Translations under genes and position numbers: made by a program
Shown: positions 14,084-43,700 of the stretch, piece after piece
How the letters are laid out: the number at the start of each line of letters is the position of its first letter
Position numbering within the stretch: position 1 is the stretch's first letter
Notes under the pieces: generated by a model
The model's database searches: none
Told to the model about the DNA's origin: nothing
Seen by the model: only the letters and a program-made list of their open reading frames with translations
Source: a virus
Lineage: Duplodnaviria; Caudoviricetes
Direction: 5' to 3' (one strand)
Virus record (IMG/VR): IMGVR_UViG_2896115756_000003
Location: 2,869-66,868 of that record
Length of the DNA stretch: 64,000 nt

Positions 14084-15874
14084 GTGGGTCTGCGTGATCT
14101 CGTCATCGATGCGTGGTCGTGGCTGAACTACAAGCCGGTGATGGCCAACCCGGTCCGGCGCGGAGCCGGCCCGTTCGCTGAGCTGGCGGCCGGCTGGGTG
14201 CCGCTCGAGGATCTGCGTCGCCTTCAGGCGTACAAACTTCTTGCCTCCTACGACAACAACCAGGCGGGGCAGCTGGCCGCAGCCGCCGGAGACGAGACCG
14301 GCCTGGAGCGCCGGGAGTTGGGTGATGCGGCGAAGCTGATCGACACCGCGCTCGGCTACATGCTCGGCTCCGAGCAGACCATCGTGGTGTCCGGGGCGGA
14401 GCACGACGATGGCACCGGCCTGTCCCCCGAGGCGCAGGCAGCACTCAACATCCAGGAACAGCTGAGGACATGGGCGGAGCGCGAGCTGCTGCCGCTGCGA
14501 ATCCAGCAGGCCGAGCGGGCTGCGGTACGGTGCGGCGACACGGTCTACACCCTGGCCTGGGACCCCGCCAAGGGCCGACCGCAGCTTCGCGTCCTCGACG
14601 CCGGGTTCTACTTCCCGGAATGGGGCGAGGAGAGCGACGCCGCCGAGTACCCCTCCCGCGTCCACTTCGCCTGGGAGCTGCCCGAGGACCAGCGCCGTGG
14701 GTTGAAGGCCCGCCTGCGCCGCATCACCTACGAACTCGGACCGATCAGCGCCGCGACCCGGCCCGGCCAGTCGAAGACCGGCCAGCCGATCCGGGAGCCA
14801 CTCGTTGGGGACGACGGTGACCCGCTGCTGATGGCCGGCGACCAGCTCGACGCCAACTCTGGCACGATCTACCGCACTTACCCGTGGGCTCCCGACCGCC
14901 CTTCAGGGGTGACGTGCTACCTGACCGACGCCGAGTGGCTGTTGGACGACCTCCGGGGACAGGACGATGTCTACAACCTGCCGATGGCCAAGGCCACCTT
15001 CCGGGCTCGCTCCGACGGGGAGGTGCTGGACCGACTCGACCTGATGGTGGACTTTCTGCCGGTCGTCCACGTCACCAACACCATCCCGGACGCGGGCGAG
15101 CACTGGGGCCAGCCGACCATCGCCAAGGTCATGCAGACGCTGGACGAACTCGCCGCGACGGACTCGGACTCGGCCGCCGCGTCTGCCACCACCGGCACGC
15201 CCATCATCGGCCTGTCCGGTGTGCGGCTGCCCAAGGACCGGATCACCGGCACGACGCTGCCGCTTCAGGTCCGGGCCGGCACGGTCTGGACGCTCGCCGA
15301 GGGCGGCTCCATGGACACGCTCGACACCTCGGCGCAGCTCGCCGAGCTGCGCGCCCGCGTCGATCACCTCCTCGACCGGGTCGCCGGGAACTCCCGGCTC
15401 ACCTCCTCCGGCCTGGGAACCCTCGACCCAGCCGCTGTCCCGTCCGGCTACGCCCTCCAGCTCGCCCTCGGACCGCTTGATGCGCTGGTCAGCAGCATGC
15501 GACTCGCGCGGAACCACAAGTACGCGCTGCTCCTTCGTATGGTGCAGCGCCTCTACCAGGCTGGGCAGGCCGACAGCTGGCCGATGGGGGAGACCCTGTC
15601 CGCACGCCTGGTTTGGGGACCGCATACGCCGACCGACCGGGCCGCTGTGCTGGACGAGGTCACCAAGGGCTTCGTCGCCGGTGTGCTCTCGCTGGAGACC
15701 AGCGTCCGGATGCTGGCCGAGGCCGGATACCCGATCGAAGACGCGGCTCAGGAAGTCCAGCGGATCCAGGCCCGCGCGTTCGACGCGGCCGCCCGGCTCG
15801 CAGACGCCACCGGTGACAACGGGGCGGTCCGGTCCTACCTGGGACTGCCGGAGCCAGCCCCCTCGCCGATGTGA
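14084..15874 (+). CDS. Portal protein
   Basis: Size (596 aa) and position between terminase and scaffold; LPVVHVTN...WGQP and SGYAL...L motifs typical of portals. Confidence 0.8.
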   Translation: MGLRDLVIDAWSWLNYKPVMANPVRRGAGPFAELAAGWVPLEDLRRLQAYKLLASYDNNQAGQLAAAAGDETGLERRELGDAAKLIDTALGYMLGSEQTIVVSGAEHDDGTGLSPEAQAALNIQEQLRTWAERELLPLRIQQAERAAVRCGDTVYTLAWDPAKGRPQLRVLDAGFYFPEWGEESDAAEYPSRVHFAWELPEDQRRGLKARLRRITYELGPISAATRPGQSKTGQPIREPLVGDDGDPLLMAGDQLDANSGTIYRTYPWAPDRPSGVTCYLTDAEWLLDDLRGQDDVYNLPMAKATFRARSDGEVLDRLDLMVDFLPVVHVTNTIPDAGEHWGQPTIAKVMQTLDELAATDSDSAAASATTGTPIIGLSGVRLPKDRITGTTLPLQVRAGTVWTLAEGGSMDTLDTSAQLAELRARVDHLLDRVAGNSRLTSSGLGTLDPAAVPSGYALQLALGPLDALVSSMRLARNHKYALLLRMVQRLYQAGQADSWPMGETLSARLVWGPHTPTDRAAVLDEVTKGFVAGVLSLETSVRMLAEAGYPIEDAAQEVQRIQARAFDAAARLADATGDNGAVRSYLGLPEPAPSPM

Positions 15875-19339: not shown

Positions 19340-19418
19340 CCTCGGCCGCAGTCGGCCTGGCCACCGAAACGACGAGCGGTGGCCAGGCCGACCGCGGCCC
19401 CGACCAAGGGACCCGCCC

Positions 19419-19745
19419 GTGGACCAGAGCGTCCTCGCCTGGCTGCTCGCCCAGCTCGGCCCCAGCACCGACCACACCGACCTCGCCACCCGCTACGCCC
19501 GGCTCGGCACTGCGCGCTCCGTCGCCGCCGAGATTCTGGCCGAGCGTCGCGCACGCCTGCTGGCCGAGCCGCTGCGCTTGGTCGTGGACGGTGTGATCAC
19601 CACCGACAACACCGCGAACCTGGCGGGCCTGGAGCGCCAGCTTGCATCCTTGGCCGACGCCATCGCGCCGGACGATCCGGCGGCGGCAGAGGACGGACAC
19701 CAGCTGGTCACCGCCCAGCTGATCCGCTCCCGCACCACCCGGTAG
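19419..19745 (+). CDS. Head-tail adaptor-like protein
   Basis: Position and helical character. Confidence 0.55.
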   Translation: MDQSVLAWLLAQLGPSTDHTDLATRYARLGTARSVAAEILAERRARLLAEPLRLVVDGVITTDNTANLAGLERQLASLADAIAPDDPAAAEDGHQLVTAQLIRSRTTR

Positions 19746-19753
19746 GCCCTGCC

Positions 19754-20560
19754 GTGCCGTACGTGTGGCCGCCGCTGCTACCCGGCGATCAGGAAGAGGT
19801 CGCCGGCCGAGTCGCCGCCGTCCTCGAGGACGCCTGGCAGCGGCTGATCGCCAAGCAGGCCGCGGTGATCACGGCCTTCGCCGACAACTGGCGCACCCCA
19901 TACGTGCTCGCCACCTTGGCCGAGTTCAGGAGAGCGATCGAGGACTTCCACAGGGCTGTGGACGAGGAGGCGGCAGGCTTCGTGCGGCGGCAGCTGCCCT
20001 ACCTGTACGAGCAGGGGGCAACAGCGGCCGTCGCCGTGTCTGGCGGCAGGTTCGCGTGGACGCTGATCCACCGCGATGCCCTCCAAGCCCTCGCCGCCGA
20101 CTCCTACGCCGACTTCCTGCGCCGCTCCCAGGAGGCCGGCCGGATGGCCGAGCAGTTCTACCGGGCGGCCCGAGCCGCCGCCCGCCGGGAGGTGCCGCTG
20201 CTGGCGGCAGGGAACACCACCGCGCGGCAGGCAGCCCGCGCTCTCGCCGACCGGCTCACTGCCGAGCACCGGCTCGACCACGTCATCTACCGCAACGGCG
20301 CGCGGGTCCCGGTCCGCGCCTGGGCGGAGGCGGCGACCCTGGCGAAGAGCGCGGTCGCCTACAACTCGGGCACCCTCAACCAGGCCCGCCAGGCAGGGGT
20401 CACCATGGTCGAGGTCTTCGACGGCCCGGACTGCGGGTGGACCAGCCACACCGACCCGGACAAGGCCACCGGGACGGTACGGTCCGTCGACGAGGCAGCC
20501 GCGTGGCCGATCTCCCACCCGAGGTGTCGTCGAAGCTTCGGGCCCCGTCCCGATCTGTGA
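19754..20560 (+). CDS. Phage minor capsid (MuF-like) protein
   Basis: C-terminal DGPDC...HPRCRRSF motif. Confidence 0.75.
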   Translation: MPYVWPPLLPGDQEEVAGRVAAVLEDAWQRLIAKQAAVITAFADNWRTPYVLATLAEFRRAIEDFHRAVDEEAAGFVRRQLPYLYEQGATAAVAVSGGRFAWTLIHRDALQALAADSYADFLRRSQEAGRMAEQFYRAARAAARREVPLLAAGNTTARQAARALADRLTAEHRLDHVIYRNGARVPVRAWAEAATLAKSAVAYNSGTLNQARQAGVTMVEVFDGPDCGWTSHTDPDKATGTVRSVDEAAAWPISHPRCRRSFGPRPDL

Positions 20561-25526: not shown

Positions 25527-26093
25527 ATGGGAATCGCCACTCTCACCGACCTCGCCCCGTCACAGGAGAACTTCCTCGCGCTGGCTGCCAGCGCAAGGGA
25601 CGAGAAGGTGTTTGAATCGCTGTTCATCTGGGGCGATCTGCAGACCCGCGACTATGCGACCGAGCTGTTCCGGCGCGGCGGCACATCGCAGGCTGACGTC
25701 GACGCGGCTGTCGCCGCGCGGCTCGCGCGGCGACAGTACATGGACGGCACCCGCACCTACCACGTCGTGATGACCGAGAGCACCTTGCTCTCGGGCTTCG
25801 GCGGACGAGAGGTGATGAACAATCAGCTCCGTTATCTACTGGAGGCCATGACCACGCCTGGCTTGACGCTCGGCATCATCCCGGCGACGGCTGAGATGCC
25901 GGTCGTCCCCGGTGGCGGCTTCGCGATCATCAACGGCGTGCGTGTGGAGTTCGACGACTACGAGGGCCACAGCACTGCCACCGACATGGCAGCGGTCAGG
26001 CGCTTCAACGACGCCTTCGATCAGCTCAGTAACGTCGCTGTGTTCGGCGACGATGCGCGAGACCTGATCACCGCGGTGATCGACGCCCGCTGA
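25527..26093 (+). CDS. Stand-alone DUF5753-like domain protein
   Basis: GDLQTRDYA, AVAARLARR, GGREVM..QL..L motifs; no HTH. Confidence 0.8.
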   Translation: MGIATLTDLAPSQENFLALAASARDEKVFESLFIWGDLQTRDYATELFRRGGTSQADVDAAVAARLARRQYMDGTRTYHVVMTESTLLSGFGGREVMNNQLRYLLEAMTTPGLTLGIIPATAEMPVVPGGGFAIINGVRVEFDDYEGHSTATDMAAVRRFNDAFDQLSNVAVFGDDARDLITAVIDAR

Positions 26094-26381
26094 TCGACGC
26101 CGGTCACCGGAACTGCCTCCGCCCGATGCTCAACATGCCCTGCTCGGCTGTCGCCGGCGAGAGCATACGGGGCCGCGCCACCCACAAGGACCGTGCGGCC
26201 CCACCCAGCATCTGACGACACCAAGTAACTGCCCAGCTCTTGCGCGGTGGTGAGAGCTGGGAGTTTCGAAGATCGGGCCGACGACCCGGTGTCTCTATTC
26301 CCAACTGACCGGCGCCTTAGGGCACTTGCCTGGGACCGACTCACTCCTCCCTCCATGCGGGGGACTACCGAAAGTACGGAG

Positions 26382-27089
26382 ATGACAGACAAGTCACCAT
26401 GCCACGCCATAGTGATCGCCTCCGGTGGGCTCGACAGCACCACCGTGGCGTACTGGCTCGCCGACCGAGGAGCCATCCTCACCATGCTGTCGTTCGACTA
26501 CGGGCAGCGGCACCGTACGGAGCTGCAGTACGCCGGGCGTATCGCCGGTCACCTCGGTGCTTCGCACGAGGTCGTCGACTTGAGTGGGCTCGGTCGGCTG
26601 CTGACCGGGTCGGCTCTCACGGACCTGGGTGTGAGGGTCCCGGATGGCCACTACACCGCCGAGACCATGCGCAGCACCGTCGTGCCGAACCGCAACACGA
26701 TCATGCTGTCCGTTGCCGTCGCGGGGGCCGTCGCGACGGGCGCGGACGCCGTGGCGTTCGGCGCACACAGCGGGGATCACGCGATCTACCCGGACTGCCG
26801 AGCCAGTTTCTTCGACCAGTTCGCGGCGATGACGCGGGAAGGCAACGAGGGTTTCCTCGCCGACGGGTTCGAGCTGCTGGCGCCGTTCATCGGCCTGACG
26901 AAGGCCGACATCGTGGAGATCGGGCGGCAGTTGGGCGTGCCGTTCGAGGACACCTGGTCCTGCTACAAGGGCGGCCAGGTGCACTGCGGGACCTGCGGGA
27001 CGTGCACCGAGCGGATCGAGGCGTTCGCGCTGGCGGGCGTAAGCGACCCCACCGTCTACGCCAGCGCCACCCCAGGGGCGGCCTCGTGA
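26382..27089 (+). CDS. queC: 7-cyano-7-deazaguanine (preQ0) synthase
   Basis: SGGLDS, FDYGQRH, VPNRN, YPDCR, TWSCY and HCGTCGTC motifs. Confidence 0.96.
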   Translation: MTDKSPCHAIVIASGGLDSTTVAYWLADRGAILTMLSFDYGQRHRTELQYAGRIAGHLGASHEVVDLSGLGRLLTGSALTDLGVRVPDGHYTAETMRSTVVPNRNTIMLSVAVAGAVATGADAVAFGAHSGDHAIYPDCRASFFDQFAAMTREGNEGFLADGFELLAPFIGLTKADIVEIGRQLGVPFEDTWSCYKGGQVHCGTCGTCTERIEAFALAGVSDPTVYASATPGAAS

Positions 27090-27481
27090 CCGCGTTAACC
27101 GGAGAGCACCGGATCGGCAAGCGGTTCCGGTTCGAGGCCGCGCACTACCTGCCCGGCCTGCCCGATGGGCACCAGTGCGCCCGGCTGCACGGCCACTCCT
27201 ATGAGGTGGAGTTCGTCCTGACCGCCGACCGGCTGAGCGGGCCCGGCTTCGTCACGGACTTCGGGGACCTGGCGCCGGTCAAGATGATGATCGACAGTGC
27301 CCTCGACCACCGCGTCCTGAACGAGGCGCTGCCCGAGCTCGTACCGACCTCGGAGAACCTGGCCGCCTACTTGGCCGGCTGGTTCGTCGAGCACGTCGAG
27401 CCCGGCCTCCCTGGCCGCCTGACCGCGGTGCGGGTGTCGGAGACCGCGAGCAGCTGGGCGCAGTTCGAGGTGGCCCGGTGA
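27086..27481 (+). CDS. queD: 6-carboxytetrahydropterin synthase
   Basis: FEAAH, C.RLHGHSY, LDHRVLN and PTSENLA motifs. Confidence 0.95.
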   Translation: MTALTGEHRIGKRFRFEAAHYLPGLPDGHQCARLHGHSYEVEFVLTADRLSGPGFVTDFGDLAPVKMMIDSALDHRVLNEALPELVPTSENLAAYLAGWFVEHVEPGLPGRLTAVRVSETASSWAQFEVAR

Positions 27482-28191
27482 GCGCGCCCGTCCGGGAGGA
27501 ACCCGGGGCCCGGGGACTGCTGATCGCCGAGACCTTCGGCCCCACCTTCCAGGGCGAGGGCCCGACCGCCGGGCGGCAGGCGTTGTTCATCCGGCTTTCG
27601 CGCTGCAACCTGCACTGCCCCAGGTGCGACACCCCGTACACGTGGGACTGGACCAGGTTCGATCCGAGTGAGGTCTCCACCCGCCACAGCGTCGAGGACG
27701 TGGCGGCCTGGGTGACGGACCGGCTGACGGCGCGGGTGGTCGTCACCGGCGGTGAACCACTGATCCAGCAGCGCGAGCTGCTGAGGCTGGTCCAGCTGCT
27801 GCCGGACCGGCGGGTCGAGATCGAGACCAACGGGACGATCGTTCCGCTGCCCGAACTCGTGGGACTGGTCGAGGGGTTCAACGTCTCCCCGAAGTTGGCC
27901 GGCTTCGCGGCCCTGGACGATCAGGCGGTCAACGGCGCGGCGCTGCGGGTGCTGGCGGCGTCCGGCAAGGCCCGATTCAAGTTCGTCGTCCGGCAGGTCG
28001 CGGAGCTGGAGGAAATCGCGGCCCTGGTCGACGAGTTCGATCTGACCGAGGTGTGGGTGATGCCGGAGGGAACGAGCAGTGGCGCGGTGCTCGCGGGGAT
28101 GCGCGCGCTGGCGGACGCGGTGCTGGCTCGCGGCTGGAATCTCAGCAACCGCCTGCATGTGCTGCTCTGGGAGGATGAACGTGGCCGGTAA
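27478..28191 (+). CDS. queE: 7-carboxy-7-deazaguanine synthase (radical SAM)
   Basis: TFQGEG, CNLHCPRCDT, TGGEP, IETNG and SPKL motifs. Confidence 0.95.
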   Translation: MSAPVREEPGARGLLIAETFGPTFQGEGPTAGRQALFIRLSRCNLHCPRCDTPYTWDWTRFDPSEVSTRHSVEDVAAWVTDRLTARVVVTGGEPLIQQRELLRLVQLLPDRRVEIETNGTIVPLPELVGLVEGFNVSPKLAGFAALDDQAVNGAALRVLAASGKARFKFVVRQVAELEEIAALVDEFDLTEVWVMPEGTSSGAVLAGMRALADAVLARGWNLSNRLHVLLWEDERGR

Positions 28192-28203
28192 GGACAGCAA
28201 GAC

Positions 28204-28321
28204 GCCCGAGTGGGGCGGTCGTTCCGGATCCCCGAGGCCGCGCGTGTTGGGTAGCGGCCAAGCGTGTAGAGGGGGGAGCGGGAGCCTGCCTGCCACTCGG
28301 GCTGTGCCCAGCATACCCAAC
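28204..28321 (+). ncRNA. Putative structured RNA (long hairpin plus pseudoknot) upstream of the RT
   Basis: gcccgagtgg (28204-13) pairs with ccactcgggc (28293-302); inner stems present; ggccgc/gcggcc hairpin whose loop gttgggta (28246-53) is complementary to tacccaac (28314-21). Confidence 0.6.
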
Positions 28322-28348
28322 TCCTCGGCTGCGCGCGCCCATTCGCTG

Positions 28349-29131
28349 ATGCCGTTTCTCGTGGATCCCAAGCACCTGAAGCGGGCGGCCCGTGCCTGCA
28401 TGCGCCGGGGTGGGGCTCCTGGAGCGGACGGGATGAGCTGGGCGCAGTTCCGTACCGGCTTGTCCGGCCGCCTCGCAGATCTTGCTGAGCAGCTGCACGC
28501 CGGCACCTGGCAGCCGAGCCCCGTGCGGGAGGTCGCGATCACGGCCTACACCGGCAAGGTGTTCACGGCGGTGATTCCGACCGTCGCCGATCGGGTGGTG
28601 CAGCGGGCGATGCGCAACGCCATCGAACCGGTGCTGGAGGCAAGGGCGTTCGCCGACTGGGTGTCCGGCTACCGGGCCGGTCGCAACCGGATCACGGCGT
28701 TGCGAGACGCCGACCGGCACCTGCGGGCCGGGCACCGGTGGGTGGCGGACCTGGACGTGCGCCAGACCTCCGCCGGGTCCAGCGCGGCTGAGGTCACTGA
28801 CTGGCTGGCCGAGCATGTCGCCGACGGGACCTTCCTCGGCTACTTCCGCAAGGTGCTGGAGCCGCTGCCGTACCCGATCGTGCCCGGCACCGCGCTGGCG
28901 CCGCTGCTGATCAACTTGCGGCTGTCTCGCGCAGACGCGGCGCTGGCCGGCTACTGGGTGGTGCGGTTCGCCGACAACTACTGCCTGTTCTGCCGTGACG
29001 AGAAGCAGGCTCGCGAGGCGATGGCCGCCGTCATGGAGGCCCTGGCCGGGTGCGGTCTTGAGCCGCATCCGGACAAGAGCCAGATCCGATGCGGTGTCAA
29101 CGCCGAAGATCTCTTCCTGATCGCCGGATGA
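28349..29131 (+). CDS. Short group-II-like reverse transcriptase domain protein (FADN motif, no thumb)
   Basis: GAPGADG (RT0), IPTVADRVVQRA (RT2), SGYRAGR, ADLDV (RT3), VRFADN (RT5), HPDKS (RT6-7); alternative GTG start at 28304. Confidence 0.88.
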   Translation: MPFLVDPKHLKRAARACMRRGGAPGADGMSWAQFRTGLSGRLADLAEQLHAGTWQPSPVREVAITAYTGKVFTAVIPTVADRVVQRAMRNAIEPVLEARAFADWVSGYRAGRNRITALRDADRHLRAGHRWVADLDVRQTSAGSSAAEVTDWLAEHVADGTFLGYFRKVLEPLPYPIVPGTALAPLLINLRLSRADAALAGYWVVRFADNYCLFCRDEKQAREAMAAVMEALAGCGLEPHPDKSQIRCGVNAEDLFLIAG

Positions 29132-29145
29132 GGGGAGGCGACATC

Positions 29146-29706
29146 ATGGAGAACAACCCTGACCAGCAGTTGGTGTGGGTTCCGGTCCCGGGCGGCATCT
29201 GCCTGTTCGGCGACCGGCAGCGCCGGGTGAAGGTGCCAGACCTCGAATGGACAGTCACCCCGCTCACCTTGGCCCAGGCCGGGCAGGGCGGCGGTGCGCT
29301 CCCGCTGACCGGCCTGGTCCACGCACAGGCCGCCCGGCTGGCAGCCGACCTCGGCGGGCGGCTACCCCGCTCCTCAGAGTGGGAGTGGGCGGCTTCCGGC
29401 CCCGGCCGCAGGCTCTACCCGTGGGGCGGCGAGGAGCCCGGCCCCGGCAGGGCGAACTTGCGCGGCGGCCCCGGCCGGCTGACCGCGGTGGACGCCCATC
29501 CGGACGGAGTGACGCAGCAGGGCCTACTCGACATGGGCGGTAACTGCTGGGAGTGGACCTCATCTCCGACCATCGGCGGCGGCTTCATCATCCGGGGAGG
29601 CTCCTACAACTCCCTGTCCCTGTACGCCCGGTGCACGTTCCTGAACGCGGCTCCGGCCGAGCTGGGCTCCGCAGGCATCGGCGTGCGGGTGGTGAGGGCG
29701 ACATGA
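29146..29706 (+). CDS. Formylglycine-generating enzyme-like (SUMF1/CLec fold) protein
   Basis: RLPRSSEWEWAA, YPWG, GLLDMGGNCWEWT, IRGGSY and IGVRVV motifs. Confidence 0.9.
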   Translation: MENNPDQQLVWVPVPGGICLFGDRQRRVKVPDLEWTVTPLTLAQAGQGGGALPLTGLVHAQAARLAADLGGRLPRSSEWEWAASGPGRRLYPWGGEEPGPGRANLRGGPGRLTAVDAHPDGVTQQGLLDMGGNCWEWTSSPTIGGGFIIRGGSYNSLSLYARCTFLNAAPAELGSAGIGVRVVRAT

Positions 29707-30146
29707 TCAGGGACCTGGTGATCGCGGGTTGCTCCCGTCGCAAGGCACCGGAGCGCAGGCCGCTGCCCGCGTTGGAGCGGTACACCGGCGGTATCGCCCC
29801 GCACTTGCGGACGAGATTCGCCGGCCATCGGCAGGCGCGGGAGCGCATCCGCTTCCTGTCGGCCGAGCACGGGCTCATCCGCGCCGACGCCCTGCTCACC
29901 TCGTACGACCGGCAGCTGACGGTCGCGCGTGCCGAACGGCTGCGCCCACTCATTGCCGAGCAACTGGAGCACGAGTTCCAGAACCGGGGAGTCCCCGAGC
30001 GAGTTCTACTCGTGCTGGAGCCCGCGTACCTGGTGCCGCTCGCCGACCTGCTCGCCCACCCAGCACGGCCCGCCCTGCAATGGATTTACGACCCGCGCGG
30101 TTGGGCCGAGGCCGCCGCCGTCCTCGACGAATGGAGGTGGCCGTGA
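29703..30146 (+). CDS. DUF6884/YaaA-like protein
   Basis: IAGCSRRK..PALERYTG, FLSAEHGLI and SYD..L motifs. Confidence 0.7.
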   Translation: MIRDLVIAGCSRRKAPERRPLPALERYTGGIAPHLRTRFAGHRQARERIRFLSAEHGLIRADALLTSYDRQLTVARAERLRPLIAEQLEHEFQNRGVPERVLLVLEPAYLVPLADLLAHPARPALQWIYDPRGWAEAAAVLDEWRWP

Positions 30147-31177
30147 CCGCCACGCTCGCGGATACGCTCAAGACGCGCTCCAACGACCACAGTTACATCA
30201 CCGGTGGGTTCTACGGCGGTACCAGGGTTGGCTGGCACCAGCCGACTCCAGCAGCGGCCGCCGAAGGCCGTCCGCTGTCGGTGGTGCTCCCGGCCCACAA
30301 CACCGCATACGCCCTGCCGACGGTGCTGGACGCGCTCGCCGCGCAGCACACCGCCGGGCCGGTGGATGTGATCGTCGTGGACGACGCCTCCACCGACAAC
30401 ACCTTCGAGATTGCCCGTCGGCACCCCGTGGTCACCACCGCCGTGCGGTTGGCGACCCGGTCCGGCTCGGCCGGTGCCCGCAACGTCGGCGCCCGCCTCG
30501 CCCAAGCGGAGAACCTGCTGTTCGTGGACTCGGACATGGTGCTGCCCTCGCACGTGCTCGCGGACTTCGCCGCCCGTGCCCGGCCCGAGACCGTGCTGAC
30601 CGGCTTCCGCCACAACCTTCCCTTCCTGCGCACCGCGTGCGGGCCGATGCTGCCCGAGAACCCGCCGCAGCTGGCCGCCGACCACCGCGTCACCTGGACG
30701 CCGCCGATCAACACCCTGCTGCCGTACTCCGGCATCACGCTCACCGAGCCGCTGCACGGCCGACCGCTTGATGCCACCGACGACTTCCAGAACCTCGGGT
30801 ACGGCCGGTTCTACTACGACTGGGACCTGCCCCGGATGGCTGTCACCGCGCTGCTCGGCGTCCCCCGCGAGCGCCTCGTGGACGTCGGCGGCTTCGACGA
30901 GGAGTTCGGCCGGATCGGCTGGGGCATGGAGGACACCTACCTGGGTGCCGCGCTGATTGCCGCTCGCTGCCTGGTCGTCCCGCTGCGTCAGGCCGTCGGC
31001 TACCACCTCGACCCGCCAGACGCCGCCGCCCAGTGGCAGACCAAGCTCGCCGCCTGGCCCGCCACCCTCGCCCACTACCGGACCCTGCTCGCCCAGCCGG
31101 CCCCCACCGGGCGAGGGCGCGACTTCGCTGCTGCCACCGACAAGCTCCTGACCGACGCCGAGGTGATCACCGCATGA
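30143..31177 (+). CDS. Glycosyltransferase family 2
   Basis: SVVLPAHN, VVDDASTD, ARNVG, FVDSD and GGFDEEF..WGMED motifs. Confidence 0.92.
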   Translation: MTATLADTLKTRSNDHSYITGGFYGGTRVGWHQPTPAAAAEGRPLSVVLPAHNTAYALPTVLDALAAQHTAGPVDVIVVDDASTDNTFEIARRHPVVTTAVRLATRSGSAGARNVGARLAQAENLLFVDSDMVLPSHVLADFAARARPETVLTGFRHNLPFLRTACGPMLPENPPQLAADHRVTWTPPINTLLPYSGITLTEPLHGRPLDATDDFQNLGYGRFYYDWDLPRMAVTALLGVPRERLVDVGGFDEEFGRIGWGMEDTYLGAALIAARCLVVPLRQAVGYHLDPPDAAAQWQTKLAAWPATLAHYRTLLAQPAPTGRGRDFAAATDKLLTDAEVITA

Positions 31178-32121
31178 TCCGCACGTTCGCCGCCGCCGAC
31201 ATCCACGGCACCACCGTCGTCCACGACCCGGCCACCGGCACCAACCACCTGCCGGCGCGGCCGTTGCCGCCCGGACCCCTCGGCCTGGATGAGCAGGAGG
31301 TCGCGGCCTGGCCCGAGGCCATGCACGGCCAGCTCAAGCCGACCGCGCCGCTGAGCATGTGCTGGTCGCCGATCGTGCGGTGCAACCTCACCTGCCCGCA
31401 GTGCCTGGACGACAAGCGCGTGCGCGAGTCCACCGCCGAGGAGCGTCGCACCCTGGCCAGGCACATCGGCGAGTCCGGGATCTTGGGCGTGGACATCTCC
31501 GGCGGAGAGCCGCTGCTGTTGCGCGACCTGCCCGACCTCGCCCTGGCGATCCGCGCCGGCCGCCAGGCGGTGGTCAGCTGCACCACCAACGGCTGGCACC
31601 TGGCCAGGCGCGCCCCCGAGCTGGCCCCCGCGCTCGACGCCATCCGCATCTCACTGGACGGCGCCACCGAGGCCACCCACGACGCTTGGCGCGGAGCCGA
31701 GAGCTACAGCCGGGCGATCGACGGCACCCGTGCCGCAGTCGGCGAGGGTCTGCGGGTCCAGTTCCAGATGGTGCTGATGCGCTCCAACCAGCACGAGGCG
31801 CAGGCCCTGCTGGAGTTGGCCGCGCAGCTCGGCGTCGGCGGCGTGACCTTCCTGCAGATGCTGCCCATCGGCGAAGGCAAGGCCATCGCCGAACAGCAGA
31901 TGCTCACCGACGACCAGGCCACCGCCGCCATCGAAGCCCTCACCGTCCCCGATGGGCTGCGGGTGCGGCTTCGTACCCGCGACAGCGCCGACGGCTTCAC
32001 GGTGCTGCGTGCTGACGGCTACGCATGGCGCAATACCGGTGGCGCCACCGGCATCGCCGCGTTCATCCCCGTCACCGGCCCCCAGGATCTGCACCTGCCC
32101 ACCGCCCGGAGCGCATCGTGA
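31174..32121 (+). CDS. Radical SAM protein
   Basis: CNLTCPQC, ISGGEPLL, TTNG and ISLDG motifs. Confidence 0.92.
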   Translation: MIRTFAAADIHGTTVVHDPATGTNHLPARPLPPGPLGLDEQEVAAWPEAMHGQLKPTAPLSMCWSPIVRCNLTCPQCLDDKRVRESTAEERRTLARHIGESGILGVDISGGEPLLLRDLPDLALAIRAGRQAVVSCTTNGWHLARRAPELAPALDAIRISLDGATEATHDAWRGAESYSRAIDGTRAAVGEGLRVQFQMVLMRSNQHEAQALLELAAQLGVGGVTFLQMLPIGEGKAIAEQQMLTDDQATAAIEALTVPDGLRVRLRTRDSADGFTVLRADGYAWRNTGGATGIAAFIPVTGPQDLHLPTARSAS

Positions 32122-37623: not shown

Positions 37624-38019
37624 ATGAGTACTGACACGCAGGTGCCGAGCCGGGTGCGGATCACTGCATCCGGCCTGGACTCCTCGCTGACGATCGACGG
37701 GCACGATGTGTCCGATCAGGTCCGCTCCTACACGCTGCACCACCAGGCGGGGCAGGTGCCTCAACTCGCGCTGTTGCTCGGACCCTCTGCGGCAGATCAT
37801 TGGGAGGGCGTAGCCAAGGTAGTGGTCGGCGTTCCGCCGGACCCGGGTCCGGCTGCTGCCTCCTTTCTGGAGGCGATCGACGCGGGCGAGCTGGAGCGGA
37901 CCGTACTGAACCGGCACGACCTGATGGATGGGCAGCCGGGGGAGTACACCCGGGCCGTGCTGGCGCAGCTGACCGAGTGGGCAGCAGGCCGGTGGGGGCT
38001 GCTGGAGGAGATCGCTTGA
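37624..38019 (+). CDS. Hypothetical phage protein
   Basis: ORF within the head-tail region. Confidence 0.6.
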   Translation: MSTDTQVPSRVRITASGLDSSLTIDGHDVSDQVRSYTLHHQAGQVPQLALLLGPSAADHWEGVAKVVVGVPPDPGPAAASFLEAIDAGELERTVLNRHDLMDGQPGEYTRAVLAQLTEWAAGRWGLLEEIA

Positions 38020-38459
38020 TGGCCTCGCCTGTGAACCCGCACCCGAACGCGCACCCGTCAGCCGGGGCGTACAGCAACGGCGCGCAGCTGGCGGTCCAGT
38101 TGGAGGCGCGGGCTGCCGCGCTGCTCCCTGCGGCCGTTGCGGTGGTGCGGCATCATGCGATGCTGCTGGAGACTGCGATCAAGGCGCAGGCGTCCGGCCG
38201 GCCGGGCCCGAACGCGGTGACGGGCGACTACCGGCGGTCCTGGACGCACGAGGTGCGCACCGTGTCAGGTGGGGTGGAGGCGGTAGTCGGGACGAACAAG
38301 CCTCAGGCCCGTCGTCTGGAGTTCGGGTTCGTCGGCCCGGACATTCTGGACAGGGTCTTCCACCAGCCGCCCTACCCGCACGTTGCTCCGGCCGTGGCCC
38401 AGATCGAGCCGCTGTTCACCGCTGCCATGGCCCGGCTTGCCGAAGGGAGCGGTCAGTGA
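38019..38459 (+). CDS. HK97 gp10-like neck/tail-completion protein
   Basis: TGDYRRSW, VGTNKPQARRLEFG and PYPH..PA motifs. Confidence 0.8.
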   Translation: MASPVNPHPNAHPSAGAYSNGAQLAVQLEARAAALLPAAVAVVRHHAMLLETAIKAQASGRPGPNAVTGDYRRSWTHEVRTVSGGVEAVVGTNKPQARRLEFGFVGPDILDRVFHQPPYPHVAPAVAQIEPLFTAAMARLAEGSGQ

Positions 38460-40420: not shown

Positions 40421-40749
40421 CCGCCGACCCGGCCTTCCGGGCGGAGATGGAGCTCGCCGACCGGTACGGGATCCCGCACAGCCAGCTGACCGGCGCCGGA
40501 TCGGGCCGGTGGACGGCGCTGGACCGAGCGAAGGCGCTGGCCTTCCTCGCCTACCGGCGGCATGTGTGCGACGGGTGCGGAACCCGGGCGGCGGAGTGGG
40601 ACGAACGCGCGGGAGGTGACCGGTTCGCGTACGTCGCCGAGACGGTGCGCTGCCCGGGCTGCGAGCTGGTGGAGATGGAGCGTGAACGGGTCCCGGACGG
40701 GGCCGAGGGACGCGGGGTGAAGATCGGGCTGCGGCCCAGGAAGGAGTGA
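40408..40749 (+). CDS. Tail assembly chaperone -1 frameshift extension (gpGT-like)
   Basis: The -1 frame is open from the slippery site to 40749; contains CxxC...CxxC. Confidence 0.75.
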   Translation, partial: GKRLTADPAFRAEMELADRYGIPHSQLTGAGSGRWTALDRAKALAFLAYRRHVCDGCGTRAAEWDERAGGDRFAYVAETVRCPGCELVEMERERVPDGAEGRGVKIGLRPRKE

Positions 40750-43700
40750 CCGGCGTGGCCGGCGCCTACACCCTATACGTCCAACTCCAGGCCGGGCTGT
40801 CCGGGTTGACGAACGGCCTGCGCGGCGGGGCCCAGCAACTGCGGGCCTTCGACGGGCAGCTTGGCGCCACCCGGGCAGCCCTGGAGCGAGTGGAGGCGGC
40901 GGCCGAACGTCTGGGCCGCGCCCAGGTCTCGGCGGCGGCCGAAGCGGCGCGCGCCCAGACCACGGTCCGCGAAGCCGTCGAGCGCACGGCCGCCGCCGAG
41001 ACGGCCGCCGCAGCCGCCGGCGAGCGGGCCGGGCGGGCTCAGGCGGTCGCCGCCTCGGCCGCCGCCCGCGCGCAGGCCGAGCAGACGGCGGCAGTGGAGG
41101 CCACGGCCCGCGCCCTGCGGGCTCAGGAGCTGGCCGCGACGATGGCCGCCCGCGCCCAGCAGACCACGGGAGCCGGTGCGCTCGCCGCCCAGCGCACCGC
41201 CGAGGCCGCAGCCGCTTCAGCAGCACGGGCAGGCGAGGCACAGGCAGCGCAGGCGGTGCGGGCCGCGGCCGCACAGGAGACGGCTGCTCGTGCGGCACGC
41301 CTGGCCGAGTCGACCAGCGCCAGCGCCACAGCGGCAGCGGTCGCTGCCACCCAGGCCCGCACCGCCCAGGCCGCTACAGAGGAGCAGGCCGCGCGCCGCA
41401 CTGCAACGGCCACTGCCCAAGTCACGGCTGCCGAACGGGAAGCCGCCGCGGCGACGCAGGCCGCCAACGCCGCCCGCACCGCCAGCTACGCCAAGAGCGG
41501 CCTGCTGATCGGCGCGATTCTCGCGGCTGGCATCGCCCAATCGGTGGCACTGCAACGGGAGATGGCCAACGTCCTGACCATCTCCGAGCAGATCACGCCC
41601 CGCAACCTCGGCGTCTACACCGAGCAGATCATTGCAATGTCCAAGGAACTTCCGCAGTCTGCCCGGCAGTTGGCCGAAGGCCTCTACCAGGTCGTCTCGA
41701 CCGGGTTCGACGGCGCGCAGGCGATGGAGATCTTGCACGTCGCCGCGAAGGGCGCCTCCGCCGGCCTGACCACCACCGAGGTCTCCGCCAGGGCCCTGCT
41801 CGGGGTCCTGAAGGCGTACGGGCTGCCCGCCTCGCAGGCGTCCGACGTGATGGACGTGATGTTCCAGATCGTCAACAAGGGTGTCGTCTCGTTCGCCGAA
41901 CTCGCCCAGCAGCTCGGCGACGTGGTGCCTATGGCGGCGGCCGCCGGAGTGAAGTTCGACGACCTCGGCGCAGCCCTGGCGGGCATCACCCTGGCCGGCA
42001 TCCCAGCCGCCGAGTCGGCCACCGCACTCAACATGCTGATGACCCGCCTGATGCGCCCCACACGGGAACTGACCGACCTGATGCACGACTTGGGGTACGA
42101 GTCGGCGGCCAGCGCCGTGCAGCAGGATGGCCTGTACGTGGTCATCCAGAAGGTGAACGCCGCGACCAAGGGCAGCGCCGAGCAGACCGTGCAGCTGTTC
42201 AAGGACATCCGCGCCGTCCGCGCCGTGCTGGCACTCGCGGCCGCCGACGGGAAGAACTACTCAGACGCCTACCAGGCGATCGCCATCGCGACCGAGCGCG
42301 CCGGAGCCACCCAGAAGGCATACGCCCTGCAGGCGAACACGGTGGCCGGGCAGTGGGACCTGGCCCGCAACCGCGCCGCAGCCCTGGGCATGGACATCTC
42401 GCGGCTGCTGCTGCCGGTCCTCCAAGAGCTGACGGCCGACACCTCGGCGGTCATCGGAGCGATCGGCGACTTGCCCGCACCGGTCAAGGACCTCGCCGGA
42501 GTCCTGATCGCGTTGGCCGCCGCCGGGATGCTGACCCGTTCCGCCCTCTCCGTGGTCTCCTCCCAGCTGACAGCGTTCCGTGCCGCCACTGCCGAGGCCG
42601 CGGCCGGCGGCTCCGTGCTGCCGGTGATCCTGCGCGGCGCCAGCCTGGCGGTGACCGGCCTGTCTTCGGTCCTGGCACTCGGTGTGCTCGGCTACGCCGC
42701 CTACTCGGCGTCCAAGCAGCACGCCAAGCAGGTCACCGACGACCTGGCGGCGGCGCTGCGCCGCGAACGCGAAGAACACGAGCAGGGCGCGGGACTTCGA
42801 GCACTGGCTGAGTCGTTGTCCGGCTCTGACGACCTGAAGAAGCTCCAGGCCGCTGGCTTGGCGTTCAACGAGATCGTCGACGGGCTGGTGAACGGCGGCG
42901 ACAAGCTGAGCCAGCTCAAGGACCGCCTGGACGTGGGCAAGCTCGCCTCCTGGAACAAGGACCTGATGGCGTACGACCCGAGCTACGACAAGGCCAAGGA
43001 GATCCTCGACCAGCGCCGCAAGACCTGGTCGGACGCCGTCCGCAAGGATGCCGAGCTGGCGGACGCGATGAACATCATCAGCGCCAAGGTGAACAACGCC
43101 GTCCAGACCTCGGCGAAGGCCTGGAACCTCGACATGCTCGTCCCGCATGGCAAGAACGGCGAAGCCCAGTACACCGACCAGATGAAGGCCATGGCCAAGG
43201 CGATCGGTGACGTCGTCTCGCCGACGACCGCGTGGAAGGACGCGCAGGACAAGGCCGCTTCCTCCACCCGCGCGGGCGCGCTGTCGGTGGACCTGGCCAA
43301 GACCAGCATCGGCGAGTACATCGACAAGCTCGCCGACCAGCACAAGACCACTCAGCAGTTCCAGCAGGACCTTCAGGAGCTACGGGAGCGCGGCTACGGC
43401 CAGCTCGCCGAGCACTTCGCGCAGCTCGGCGATGCCTCCGCCGGCATGGCCTCCCAGCTGGTGGAGAACCTGCGCCAGGGCAAGGCCGGGGCCGCTGAGC
43501 AGCTGACCGGCCTGGTCCAGGTCACCAAGGCCAAGCTGGACGACTACATGGCCGAGCTGCGCACCCAGCTGCAGGCCCAGCGCGACTGGCAGCACAACCT
43601 GTCCGAACTCGCGCTGGCCGGCTACAGCGATCTGACCGCGCACTTCGCCGACCTCGGCCAGTCGGCGGCGCCGATCCTGGACGAGCTGGTCAAGCAGCTC

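What the first reader, a model, noticed from the sequence alone, without database searches (positions are those of the whole stretch)
28204..28321. Nested hairpin plus 8-bp pseudoknot RNA element between queE and the RT
Seen: the only sizeable gap inside the coupled queC-to-PIG-L run folds extensively. Outer stem: 28204-13 with 28293-302 (10 bp, perfect). It continues through ggcgg/ctgcc, gttcc/ggagc and tcccc/gggga. An apical ggccgc (28236-41) / gcggcc (28254-59) hairpin has a loop gttgggta (28246-53) that is perfectly complementary to tacccaac (28314-21). An in-frame GTG at 28304 lies right after the outer stem. Inference: this is either a dedicated template/primer RNA for the RT (retron- or DRT-like) or a new pseudoknot riboswitch sensing a deazapurine and controlling RT translation.
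Basis: partly seen in the sequence, partly recalled or inferred. Interest (0 to 1): 0.88.

Follow-up and report, generated by a model that had tools for sequence, protein, structure and literature searches.

The report
Antisense structured RNA inside reverse-transcriptase gene
The folded stretch is not an intergenic riboswitch: it lies inside the start of a reverse-transcriptase gene, and on the opposite strand it appears to encode a conserved hairpin RNA with its own promoter, probably the missing RNA partner of an uncharacterised enzyme cassette.

Summary
Two premises fail. (1) The "gap" is coding. The group-II-intron-like RT starts at GTG 28181, with SD 28170-74, and overlaps the queE stop. 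In 79 of 80 related loci the element keeps the RT frame, and the frame is open in 80 of 81. (2) The 8-bp pseudoknot exists in only 3 of 78 sequences, and changes to it are not compensated.

The nested helices are real, with strong covariation and frozen synonymous sites. The peptide they encode is predicted disordered.

The functional strand is most likely the minus strand:
- The RNAalifold consensus is -34.9 kcal/mol on the minus strand against -17.6 on the plus strand.
- A.C intermediates outnumber G.U by 47 to 7 changes on the RT tree.
- An invariant TANNNT -10 box (28315-28310, minus strand) lies 7 nt before the hairpin in 78 of 78 sequences, and in 33 of 34 independent metagenomic copies.
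- In a divergent RT-FGE subfamily the same promoter-plus-hairpin unit is inverted, lying upstream of the RT on the RT strand.

Best reading (about 0.55): an independently transcribed hairpin RNA of about 100 nt, tied to the RT-FGE cassette and probably the RT's RNA partner. No transcript data could be obtained. I found no report of an RNA for this cassette.

The parts
28204..28302 (-). Conserved long irregular hairpin, the proposed ncRNA body. It has 29 consensus pairs: outer stem 28204-13/28293-302, then 28214-15/28289-90, 28217-18/28285-86 and 28223-25/28281-83, a variable middle helix, and the apical stem 28236-41/28254-59.
   Evidence: RNAalifold on identical columns gives -34.9 kcal/mol (29 pairs) on the minus strand against -17.6 (18 pairs) on the plus strand. 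Pair counts on the minus-strand alignment A4: 94.6% paired, covariation 0.377 against 0.166 shuffled and <=0.088 slid.
28242..28253 (-). 12-nt apical loop, highly conserved. It reads GCGUGUUGGGUA on the plus strand and UACCCAACACGC on the minus strand.
   Evidence: Column entropies. The loop is retained as UAYCCNRCAC-like in the inverted subfamily L134/L137/L138/L141.
28310..28315 (-). Promoter-like -10 box. It reads TATGCT on the minus strand (TANNNT), 7 nt upstream of the hairpin, and predicts a minus-strand start near 28303/28302.
   Evidence: A28310, T28314 and A28315 are the only invariant tail columns. TANNNT occurs in 78 of 78 and GNTANNNT in 69 of 78, with low information between the box and the stem. 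It occurs in 33 of 34 distinct independent metagenomic copies. The TANNNT consensus and the 7-nt spacing to the start site come from passages of PMC4895711.
28181..29131 (+). Reverse transcriptase gene (group-II-intron-like, 316 aa). The true start is GTG 28181, overlapping the queE stop codon (28189-91).
   Evidence: Pfam RVT_1. TIGR04416 at 5.1e-40 covers profile positions 3-252 of 353. An in-frame SD plus start codon lies upstream of the stem in 76 of 78 sequences. ORFs of 311-323 aa occur in 75 of 78. Homologues of 316-325 aa are on record.
28170..28174 (+). Shine-Dalgarno GGAGG, 6 nt before GTG 28181, lying within the last codons of queE.
   Evidence: The same ..TGGGAGGAC..CGTGGCC.. arrangement appears in the loci where queE is upstream.
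28181..28348 (+). N-terminal 56-codon extension of the RT that is translated through the element (overprinted region).
   Evidence: The distance from the core motif to the ATG is 2 mod 3 in 79 of 80 loci. The RT frame is open >=61 codons in 80 of 81, against 5 and 21 of 81 reaching >=50 codons in the other two frames. All alignment gaps in the core are multiples of 3 except one base in L065. AF2 gives pLDDT <50 for residues 1-20 and 23-47 and >=82 from about residue 51.
28314..28321 (+). Its first two bases are the TA of the minus-strand -10 box.
27478..28191 (+). queE (7-carboxy-7-deazaguanine synthase-like radical SAM), the upstream neighbour in this window.
   Evidence: The gene upstream of the RT is queE in 40, folE in 5, queC in 33 and unknown in 2 of 80 loci (my reading), while the element stays with the RT.
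29146..29706 (+). FGE-sulfatase-like (C-type-lectin fold) gene that always follows the RT.
   Evidence: Pfam PF03781 at 8e-16. Present in 78 of 80 genome loci. It lies downstream of the RT in the inverted-element loci L134, L137 and L138.

Best explanation
The stretch has two overlapping functions.

On the plus strand it is the first 56 codons of the reverse-transcriptase gene. These codons give a disordered, dispensable leader peptide.

On the minus strand it is a small RNA gene. A housekeeping-type -10 box (TATGCT, 28315-28310) sits 7 nt ahead of a roughly 100-nt GC-rich irregular hairpin (28302-28204) with a conserved 12-nt apical loop and conserved internal loops.

The RNA is inherited as a unit with the RT-FGE gene pair. 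In most members it lies antisense inside the RT's 5' coding region. In a divergent subfamily the same unit is flipped and lies upstream on the RT strand. The conserved function therefore cannot be antisense pairing with the RT mRNA.

Most likely it is the dedicated RNA partner (scaffold, template or primer) of this thumb-less RT within the 7-deazaguanine/glycosyltransferase cassette. In the antisense arrangement it may also dampen RT expression.

Shown: the conservation, the covariation, the strand asymmetry, the promoter-like box, the inversion, and reading-frame maintenance. Inferred: that it is transcribed. Speculative: binding to or use by the RT.
For: Reality of the element:
- It is present in 79 of 80 genome loci across Actinomycetota. 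The eightieth, L044, has no upstream sequence.
- Model R1 hits only beside the RT in the 8 of 8 RT-bearing relatives. Among the other 53 genomes there is one degenerate relic.
- It was found in 0 of 150 other genomes sampled from the class.

Nucleotide-level selection:
- Mean entropy by codon position is 0.41/0.42/0.53 in the element against 0.83/0.70/1.29 in the RT core.
- Third positions of invariant residues average 1.08 in the core. In the element, CGT, GTT, CCT, GGT and NTA third bases are invariant.
- The encoded peptide has pLDDT <50.

Covariation:
- There are 44 Watson-Crick type switches on the RT tree over P1, P3 and P4.
- Pair 28217/28286 is C-G in 69 sequences and G-C in 9.

Strand:
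- The alifold consensus is -34.9 against -17.6 kcal/mol.
- P1 is 98.8% paired on the minus strand against 93.2% on the plus. P4 is 96.6% against 90.8%.
- Changes to A.C number 47 against 7 to G.U in P1 and P4.
- Single-sequence z-scores are better on the minus strand in 5 of 5 sequences folded both ways.

Promoter:
- TANNNT is at a fixed 7-nt spacing in 78 of 78 sequences.
- It is TATAAT or TACAAT in the low-GC relatives L136 and L145.
- In the independent test set it occurs in 33 of 34 distinct copies.

Inversion:
- R2 hits lie on the RT strand in L134, L137, L138 and L141, preceded by TACAAT, TATAAT or TAAAAT.
- FGE lies downstream in the 3 of these 4 loci that have room for it.
- L136 has an in-frame TAA in the loop, so translation through the element is not required.
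Against: - No transcript evidence was obtained. No sequencing run was listed, so the RNA, its ends and its strand are all inferred.
- There is no -35 consensus (<=1.25 bits). There is no canonical terminator: the U fraction is 0.21-0.24 after the hairpin against 0.144 background, and only 17 of 78 have >=5 U in the first 12 nt.
- Free MFE is on average lower on the plus strand (-51.6 against -48.4 kcal/mol; the minus strand is more stable in 19 of 78).
- The variable helix P3 shows the reverse asymmetry (G.U 25 against A.C 16 cells), though P3 is poorly aligned.
- The A4 structure was derived from the same alignment it was counted on.
- The four inverted copies score only 39.5-46.5 bits.
- Six relatives at 40-48% identity (L135, L140, L142-L144, L147) have no element within 600 nt. 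None shows FGE either.
- The RT carries FADN instead of YADD, so its polymerase activity is itself unproven.
Confidence: 0.55

Rival explanations
1. The fold acts on the plus strand, as a cis element in the 5' coding part of the RT mRNA. It would be a binding site for the RT or another cassette protein, a descendant of the group II intron DIVa logic, that autoregulates translation or captures the mRNA in cis.
For: - The plus-strand RNA must exist whenever the RT is made.
- The helices also pair well on the plus strand (92.3% of nested cells; covariation 0.262 against 0.123 shuffled).
- Plus-strand MFEs are lower on average.
- The Kitasatospora clade adds a G.U-containing extension that favours the plus strand.
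- The stem starts 23 nt after the start codon, at the edge of an initiating ribosome.
Against: - The alifold consensus is half as stable as on the minus strand.
- The 47:7 excess of A.C over G.U changes is the opposite of what a plus-strand fold predicts. For example, the purely synonymous G.U intermediate at 28209/28297 is seen in 0 of 78, while the non-synonymous A.C intermediate is seen in 8.
- It does not explain the invariant A...TA at fixed spacing.
- In L134, L137, L138 and L141 the plus-strand version would be antisense to the RT transcript.
- No similarity to intron RNA: Rfam gave nothing, and R1 gave 0 matches in 12 group II intron loci.
Confidence: 0.15
2. The minus-strand RNA is purely a cis-antisense regulator, in the manner of plasmid copy-control or type I antitoxin RNAs. 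It would silence the RT and the coupled downstream genes by duplex formation, with no role in RT catalysis.
For: - In 78 of 78 genome sequences, and in 31 metagenomic copies, the RNA is perfectly antisense to codons of about 8-41 of the RT.
- A stable hairpin with a large loop is the usual shape of such RNAs (recalled).
- In this window the cassette sits in a prophage, where silencing during lysogeny would make sense.
Against: - The unit is inverted in a subfamily, where it cannot pair with the RT mRNA.
- Cis-antisense pairs are complementary by construction, so they do not need loop and bulge sequences conserved across RTs only 44-60% identical. Here those unpaired bases are the most conserved.
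Confidence: 0.15
3. The minus-strand fold is a DNA. The RT copies the 5' end of its own mRNA from a fixed start near 28310-28315, and the single-stranded cDNA hairpin (msDNA-like) is the product that the deazaguanine, glycosyl and flap-nuclease enzymes act on.
For: - Minus-strand polarity and tolerance of G.T wobbles fit this reading.
- The conserved block begins a fixed 7 nt from the invariant A...TA.
- The cassette holds a 5'-3' exonuclease/flap nuclease and preQ0 synthesis genes, and the genome has no tRNA-guanine transglycosylase.
Against: - The invariant bases spell the actinobacterial -10 consensus exactly, and become TATAAT or TACAAT in low-GC relatives. A priming site has no reason to do this.
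- In the inverted subfamily the fold-sense strand is the RT-sense strand. A cDNA of the RT transcript would then have the wrong polarity.
- RT activity is unproven (FADN).
Confidence: 0.07
4. One reading: a plus-strand pseudoknot riboswitch that senses a 7-deazapurine and gates RT translation.
For: - The 8-bp loop-tail complementarity exists in the window and in 2 close relatives.
- preQ0 synthesis genes are adjacent.
- There is a weak association between the loop 5-mer and a complement somewhere in the sequence's own tail (40 of 78 against 23% for foreign combinations). Relatedness alone may cause this.
Against: - The pseudoknot is 55.1% paired.
- Within the genus the 3' arm changes (TACACAAC, TAACCAAC, TAGCCAAC, TATCCAAC) with no compensating change in the loop.
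- The fold lies inside the ORF, and the SD and start codon lie outside it.
- The strand evidence points the other way.
- There was no preQ1-I/II/III or other Rfam match at E<=1.
- The upstream gene is not always a que gene's end. It is folE in 5 and queC in 33 of 80 loci.
Confidence: 0.02
5. There is no RNA function. The conservation reflects only a conserved N-terminal peptide of the RT.
For: The frame is maintained, and peptide motifs (GRGRRS, PRVLG, GIVPAxQA, HSLM) recur.
Against: - Synonymous sites are frozen on rare codons.
- Compensatory changes run through non-synonymous substitutions.
- The peptide is predicted disordered.
- L136 has a stop codon in the loop, and the inverted subfamily lacks the peptide altogether. 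Its RT starts at M-Q-T-H-S-L-M.
Confidence: 0.02

Closest known systems
G2L (group-II-intron-like) RT 'cluster 4' cassette with queCDE, FGE-sulfatase, two glycosyltransferases, radical SAM, flap nuclease, PIG-L and GTP cyclohydrolase (Gonzalez-Delgado et al. 2021, PMC8632793; section 12 and the Fig. 4 legend read)
   Same: The gene content and order here are the same: queC, queD, queE, RT, FGE, GT2, rSAM, GT4, 5'-3' exonuclease, PIG-L, folE. The same run appears in 80 loci.
   Different: That paper defines G2L RTs by the absence of an intron RNA structure and mentions no RNA for this cassette. Here a conserved structured RNA unit is attached to the RT. Its supplementary Figure S1 could not be seen.
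Retron msr-msd and DRT2/DRT9/DRT3-type ncRNAs (RT-associated structured RNAs that template cDNA)
   Same: A conserved structured RNA is encoded right at the RT gene, co-inherited with it and specific to one RT family.
   Different: The RT belongs to the group II intron-like lineage, not the retron or UG lineage. The RNA is antisense to, and embedded in, the RT coding region in most members. There is no evidence yet of cDNA synthesis. Those RNAs lie upstream on the RT strand (recalled).
Group II intron domain IVa, the high-affinity binding site of the intron-encoded RT around its own start codon (recalled)
   Same: A stem-loop at the 5' end of an RT ORF from the same RT lineage.
   Different: There is no intron RNA here. 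The element model finds nothing in 12 group II intron loci. The better-conserved strand is the opposite one.
Cis-encoded antisense RNAs of plasmids and type I toxin-antitoxin loci, such as CopA, RNAI and Sok (recalled)
   Same: A short, stable hairpin RNA with its own constitutive-type promoter, transcribed against the 5' part of a coding region.
   Different: The orientation is not conserved across the family. Unpaired bases are strongly conserved, which pure antisense control does not require.
preQ1 riboswitches, classes I-III
   Same: Neighbourhood of preQ0/preQ1 synthesis genes.
   Different: No Rfam match. The element is not in a 5' UTR, the pseudoknot is not conserved, and it lies on the opposite strand.

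Membership tests
preQ1 riboswitch (Rfam classes I, II, III) | Match to the family covariance model | tested here: not met
   cmscan of 26000-31000 on both strands at E<=1 gave only an unrelated 17.2-bit match at 30210-30251.
preQ1 riboswitch (Rfam classes I, II, III) | Lies in a 5' UTR, and ligand-dependent pairing sequesters the SD or a terminator | tested here: not met
   The fold lies 8-44 nt downstream of an in-frame SD plus start codon in 76 of 78 sequences, and the frame runs through it.
   55.1% of cells paired. The 8-bp helix occurs in 3 of 78, and 6 of 78 beat shuffled tails at p<=0.05.
Retron (msr-msd plus RT) | RT of the retron clade | tested here: not met
   The best models are a group II-type RT (PDLC01136 at 7.4e-39; TIGR04416 at 5.1e-40). 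No model named as a retron RT appears among the 21 PADLOC matches.
Retron (msr-msd plus RT) | ncRNA upstream of the RT on the same strand, flanked by a1/a2 repeats, with a branching G and an msDNA product | tested here: inconclusive
   An outer inverted repeat exists, but the favoured strand is antisense to the RT in the main family. The branching G and msDNA cannot be tested with these tools.
Diversity-generating retroelement | Template repeat near the RT matching a variable repeat at the 3' end of the C-lectin/FGE-fold target gene | tested here: not met
   No direct repeat links 28192-28348, or any nearby stretch, with 29146-29706 among the families listed for 26000-32000. The 20 largest of at least 60 families were shown.
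Group II intron | Intron RNA domains around the RT ORF | tested here: not met
   No Intron_gpII or D1D4 family match at E<=1. The RT stops after the palm, matching profile positions 3-252 of 353 of TIGR04416.
G2L RT cluster-4 deazaguanine cassette (PMC8632793) | G2L RT flanked by queC/D/E, FGE-sulfatase, two glycosyltransferases, radical SAM, flap nuclease, PIG-L and GTP cyclohydrolase | tested here: met
   for the window. for 80 loci: RT 80, FGE 78, QueC 76, GT2 76, rSAM 75, GT4 72, FEN 69 and PIG-L 59 of 80, with flanks limited to 6 kb. YaaA and the phosphoribosyltransferase named in the paper were not looked for.
Independently transcribed small RNA gene | Promoter element at the right distance from the conserved 5' end | tested here: met
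   TANNNT lies 7 nt before the stem in 78 of 78 sequences and in 33 of 34 distinct metagenomic copies, in both orientations.
Independently transcribed small RNA gene | A discrete transcript with defined ends | not testable with these tools
   No run was listed, and no canonical terminator was found.

The most novel reading that the evidence does not exclude
The hairpin RNA is the obligatory template, primer or scaffold of a thumb-less, FADN-type reverse transcriptase. Together with the FGE-fold protein, the RT would build a nucleic-acid product that the cassette's preQ0, radical-SAM, glycosyltransferase, deacetylase and flap-nuclease enzymes modify with glycosylated 7-deazaguanine. This would be a new class of RT-ncRNA system, here carried by a prophage, in a host that has no tRNA-guanine transglycosylase. 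The RNA gene is overprinted antisense on the RT's own start. That is an unusual solution for keeping enzyme and RNA together.
Probability: 0.2. Interest if true: 0.9.

Novelty: new variant of a known kind. Interest (0 to 1): 0.72.

Why it matters
G2L reverse transcriptases are defined in the literature by having lost the intron RNA. The deazaguanine/glycosyltransferase cassette built around this one has no known mechanism. In retrons and in DRT2, DRT3 and DRT9, finding the RNA partner was the step that made the RT system tractable.

This work supplies a concrete, testable RNA for the cassette: a sequence, a fold, a strand, a promoter box and a predicted 5' end. It shows that the annotated RT start is wrong in most records (260 or 232 aa instead of about 316). 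It also documents a rare case of a structured RNA gene overprinted antisense on a translated region, with the protein side reduced to a disordered passenger. That has practical consequences for anyone cloning the RT, because recoding or truncating its 5' end would destroy the RNA.

Tried and rejected
DGR reading (RT plus FGE-fold target): no template/variable repeat was found.

Group II intron remnant: no Rfam intron domains, and model R1 found nothing in 12 group II intron loci from relatives.

Riboswitch: see the rival explanations.

Phage distribution: a scan of viral contigs with the RT alignment found no relative. 21 pattern matches gave 0 confirmed.

E. coli-type promoter and terminator scan of 28000-28500: 0 promoters and 0 terminators. 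This is uninformative for actinomycete promoters.

Terminator after the hairpin on the minus strand: only mild U enrichment.

-35 box: none above 1.25 bits.

Energy comparison of the two strands: inconclusive. The plus strand is lower on average, but the consensus fold is closer to the MFE on the minus strand (gap 1.28 against 3.19 kcal/mol).

A possible short loop-tail pairing (GYUGG with CCARC): a sequence's own tail carries the complement in 40 of 78 against 23% for foreign loop-tail combinations. The position varies, one clade fails (1 of 9), and relatedness can explain it. I did not adopt it.

Expression data: no RNA holder and no run was listed for 27400-29800.

The codon threading mis-threaded one or two of the 78 rows, visible as odd codons at invariant W columns. 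The means are hardly affected, but they are not exact.

Supplementary files of PMC8632793 (Figure S1, methods) could not be seen and might show more about the cassette.

The extended '-14 G' of actinobacterial promoters, the DIVa autoregulation story and the properties of plasmid antisense RNAs are recalled, not taken from any call.
Full report
**What is in the window**

The finding lies in a co-directional run of genes:
- queC (26247-27089)
- queD (the PTPS domain in the ORF ending at 27481)
- queE (27478-28191)
- a reverse transcriptase (RT)
- an FGE-sulfatase-fold gene (29146-29706)
- a GT2 glycosyltransferase
- a MoaA/viperin-like radical SAM enzyme
- a GT4 glycosyltransferase
- a 5'-3' exonuclease
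- PIG-L
- GTP cyclohydrolase I

This is the 'G2L cluster 4' cassette described by Gonzalez-Delgado et al. 2021. I read section 12 and the Fig. 4 legend. That text defines G2L RTs by the absence of an intron RNA and mentions no RNA for the cassette.

The RT best matches group II intron-type models (TIGR04416 at 5.1e-40, profile positions 3-252 of 353; PADLOC PDLC01136 at 7.4e-39). It ends after the palm domain. It carries an invariant FADNY where RTs normally have YADD.

**Checking the observation**

Thermodynamics is not persuasive on its own:
- The 139-nt plus-strand stretch has z=0.10 against shuffles.
- The 109-nt element alone has z=-2.42.

Rfam finds nothing relevant on either strand at E<=1. 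There is no DGR-type template/variable repeat.

**The 'gap' is coding**

I collected 8 orthologous loci from relatives and 80 loci from named genome records across Actinomycetota. All loci with upstream sequence carry the element directly in front of the conventional ATG of the '260-aa' RT.

Evidence that the element is translated:
- The distance from the core motif to that ATG takes the values 125, 131, 134 ... 161. It is 2 mod 3 in 79 of 80 loci; L065 is the exception.
- The RT frame is open for at least 61 codons upstream in 80 of 81 sequences. L044 is cut by its contig end.
- The other two frames reach 50 codons in only 5 and 21 of 81.
- Alignment gaps inside the element are 3, 6 or 9 columns, apart from one base in L065.
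- An SD-preceded ATG or GTG in frame lies 8-44 nt upstream of the outer stem in 76 of 78 distinct sequences.
- Full ORFs are 311-323 aa in 75 of 78. Proteins of 316-325 aa are on record.
- L054 and L077 have ATC or ATT in place of the conventional ATG.

In the window the start is GTG 28181, with GGAGG at 28170-74. It overlaps the queE stop in the usual coupled fashion.

The gene upstream of the RT is queE in 40 loci, folE in 5, queC in 33 and unknown in 2 of 80 (my reading). The element therefore belongs to the RT gene, not to a queE-RT spacer.

**The conservation is not protein conservation**

- Mean column entropy at codon positions 1/2/3 is 0.41/0.42/0.53 in the element. In 249 ungapped codon columns of the RT core it is 0.83/0.70/1.29.
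- Third positions of the 37 invariant residues of the core average 1.08.
- In the element, rare codons such as CGT, GTT, CCT, GGT and NTA keep their third base in all sequences.
- AlphaFold2, given a 75-sequence alignment, gives pLDDT below 50 and no secondary structure for residues 1-20 and 23-47. The RT core scores 82-98.

**The nested helices covary**

On the structure-blind MAFFT alignment A2, in plus-strand sense:
- The outer stem is 93.2% paired, with 6 of 10 pairs changed on both sides.
- The apical stem is 90.8% paired.
- The whole-structure covariation score is 0.262, against 0.123 in shuffles (0 of 500 reach it) and at most 0.089 when partners are slid.

Many compensations run through amino-acid changes (E-W with T-R, G-R with V-Q, G-W with T-Q). 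On a FastTree of the RT core there are 17, 15 and 12 switches between Watson-Crick pair types in P1, P3 and P4.

**The pseudoknot fails**

- Only 55.1% of its cells are paired.
- The 8-bp helix occurs in 3 of 78 sequences.
- The best loop-tail helix averages 5.14 bp, against 4.66 for shuffled tails.
- Within the genus its 3' arm varies with no change in the loop.

**Which strand folds**

In P1 and P4 the non-Watson-Crick cells are overwhelmingly A.C or C.A (49 and 32 cells) rather than G.U (5 and 5). Both helices therefore pair better on the minus strand: 98.8% against 93.2%, and 96.6% against 90.8%.

On the tree this corresponds to 47 changes involving A.C against 7 involving G.U. One example: at 28209/28297 the G.U intermediate would need only a synonymous change, yet it is never seen. 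The A.C intermediate needs a Gly-to-Glu change and is seen in 8 sequences.

Further strand evidence:
- RNAalifold on the same columns gives -17.63 kcal/mol (18 pairs) for the plus strand and -34.87 (29 pairs) for the minus strand.
- On a separately made minus-strand alignment A4, 94.6% of cells pair and covariation is 0.377, against 0.166 shuffled and at most 0.088 slid. The outer 14-pair helix is 99.0% paired and the apical stem 96.5%. The caveat is that this structure was derived from that same alignment.
- Single-sequence z-scores are better on the minus strand in all five sequences folded both ways: -2.94, -4.32, -2.52, -7.47 and -2.06 against -2.42, -3.40, -0.99, -1.45 and -0.97.

Against the minus strand:
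- Raw MFEs are lower on the G/U-rich plus strand.
- The poorly aligned middle helix shows the reverse asymmetry.

**A promoter-like box**

The only invariant columns in the tail are window A28310, T28314 and A28315. They are the first base of a Thr/Ser codon and the last two bases of an NTA codon. That codon encodes Leu, Val or Ile and is among the rarest in such genomes.

Read on the minus strand these bases are TANNNT.
- The box is present in 78 of 78 sequences, and as GNTANNNT in 69 of 78.
- It is followed by 6-7 positions of low information, after which the conserved stem begins.
- In S. coelicolor, TANNNT was found at 80.4% of 3,570 mapped start sites, with 7 nt from the box to the start (passages of PMC4895711).

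This predicts a minus-strand start at about 28303/28302, the first base of the outer stem.

**An independent test**

A metagenome scan gave 80 further loci. A model of the minus-strand fold (R2) matched 36 of them:
- 31 credible matches lie on the strand opposite the RT.
- One weak match is doubtful (L131).
- Four full-length matches lie on the RT strand: L134, L137, L138 and L141, whose RTs are 44-49% identical to the window's.

None of the 33 loci with RTs of 29-36% identity matched.

Of the 11 unmatched family loci, 5 lack upstream sequence. The other 6 (L135, L140, L142-L144, L147) also lack the FGE gene downstream.

TANNNT stands at the expected place, in the RNA's own orientation, in 33 of 34 distinct copies. 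It reads TATAAT and TACAAT in the two low-GC relatives L136 and L145. It reads TACAAT, TATAAT, TAAAAT and TAAAAT in the four inverted copies.

In the inverted loci the unit lies upstream of an RT that starts at M-Q-T-H-S-L-M. The RT is followed by FGE in the three loci that have room. L136 has an in-frame TAA in the apical loop.

Promoter and hairpin therefore move as one unit. Their functional sense is defined by the box, not by the RT. Translation through the element is optional.

**Specificity**

- The plus-strand model R1 finds one strong copy in the window's own genome (127.7 bits) and one weak match (23.7 bits, E 0.09).
- It finds the element beside the RT in 8 of the 8 relatives that have the orthologous RT. 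Among the other 53 relatives there is one degenerate, RT-less relic.
- It finds nothing in 150 other genomes sampled from the class.

**Mechanism**

Shown:
- A conserved hairpin with conserved unpaired bases.
- A strand asymmetry.
- A promoter-like box.
- Co-inheritance with the RT-FGE pair in two orientations.

Inferred: a minus-strand RNA of about 100 nt. Its 3' end is unknown, because no U-tract terminator was found.

The inversion argues against antisense pairing as the conserved function. Conservation of loop and bulge sequences across RTs 44-60% identical argues for recognition by a conserved protein. I therefore favour an RT-partner RNA, acting as scaffold, template or primer. Antisense damping of the RT would be a possible side effect in the main family.

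The rivals are a plus-strand mRNA element, a pure antisense regulator, a minus-strand cDNA, a riboswitch, and peptide-only conservation. Each is weighed in its own section.

No expression data could be obtained.

**Novelty**

Five literature searches and the one relevant review found no description of an RNA for this cassette. Rfam 15 has no matching family. Supplements were closed.

I class the element as a new variant of a known kind, the RT-associated structured RNA. What is unusual is its arrangement, overprinted antisense on the RT's translated 5' end.

Noticed in passing
window 11133-49539: The whole cassette sits inside a siphovirus-like prophage. Upstream are the terminase large subunit (11133-12671), portal (14084-15874) and a minor head protein (19379-20560). 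Directly downstream are DUF6093, a neck/tail-completion protein (37800-38459), the tape measure (40746-44915), a minor tail protein and a tail fibre. L022 also shows the minor-head homologue upstream of its cassette. No relative of the RT was found in the viral contig collection.
   Followed up: partly
whole genome G000: No tRNA-guanine transglycosylase (PF01702) was found in the window's genome. It is 98% complete, and the control rang in 14 of 14 reference genomes. The queC/D/E-folE genes here are therefore unlikely to serve tRNA queuosine.
   Followed up: partly
window 28181-29131: The RT family has an invariant FADNY in place of YADD, and a D-V-D in motif A (D134 and D136 in the 260-aa numbering of alignment A1). 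It also lacks any thumb or maturase domain. Whether it polymerises at all is open.
   Followed up: no
window 28265-29131 (protein P0003): The collection's own record for this RT is 232 aa, and most homologues are recorded as 260 aa. The comparative evidence puts the start 56 codons upstream of the 260-aa form. The RT start is thus probably mis-annotated in many public records.
   Followed up: yes
L103 4990-5100 (G038:C1:3199993-3200145): A degenerate copy of the element (63.8 bits) lies in a 116-aa ORF with no RT. A phosphotransferase-family gene lies before it and an ABC-ATPase gene after it. It is probably a decayed relic.
   Followed up: partly
L135, L140, L142, L143, L144, L147: A related RT subfamily (40-48% identity) keeps the AH(S/T)LM start motif. 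It has neither the hairpin within 600 nt nor an FGE gene downstream. L144 has a GT4-like gene upstream. It may be a different cassette built on the same RT.
   Followed up: no
L053, L057, L065: Three of 78 loci have a broken RT frame. L053 and L057 have stops after 101 and 173 codons. L065 has a 1-nt deletion inside the element. These could be pseudogenes or assembly errors.
   Followed up: no
window 31033-32121: The radical SAM protein of the cassette matches prokaryotic viperin models (PADLOC pVip at 4.2e-16; NF038283 at 6e-10) as well as MoaA-type models. This hints at nucleotide chemistry.
   Followed up: no
G000:C1:8172569-8172668 (L102): There is a second, very weak match of the element model in the same genome (23.7 bits, E 0.09). 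It is probably chance.
   Followed up: no
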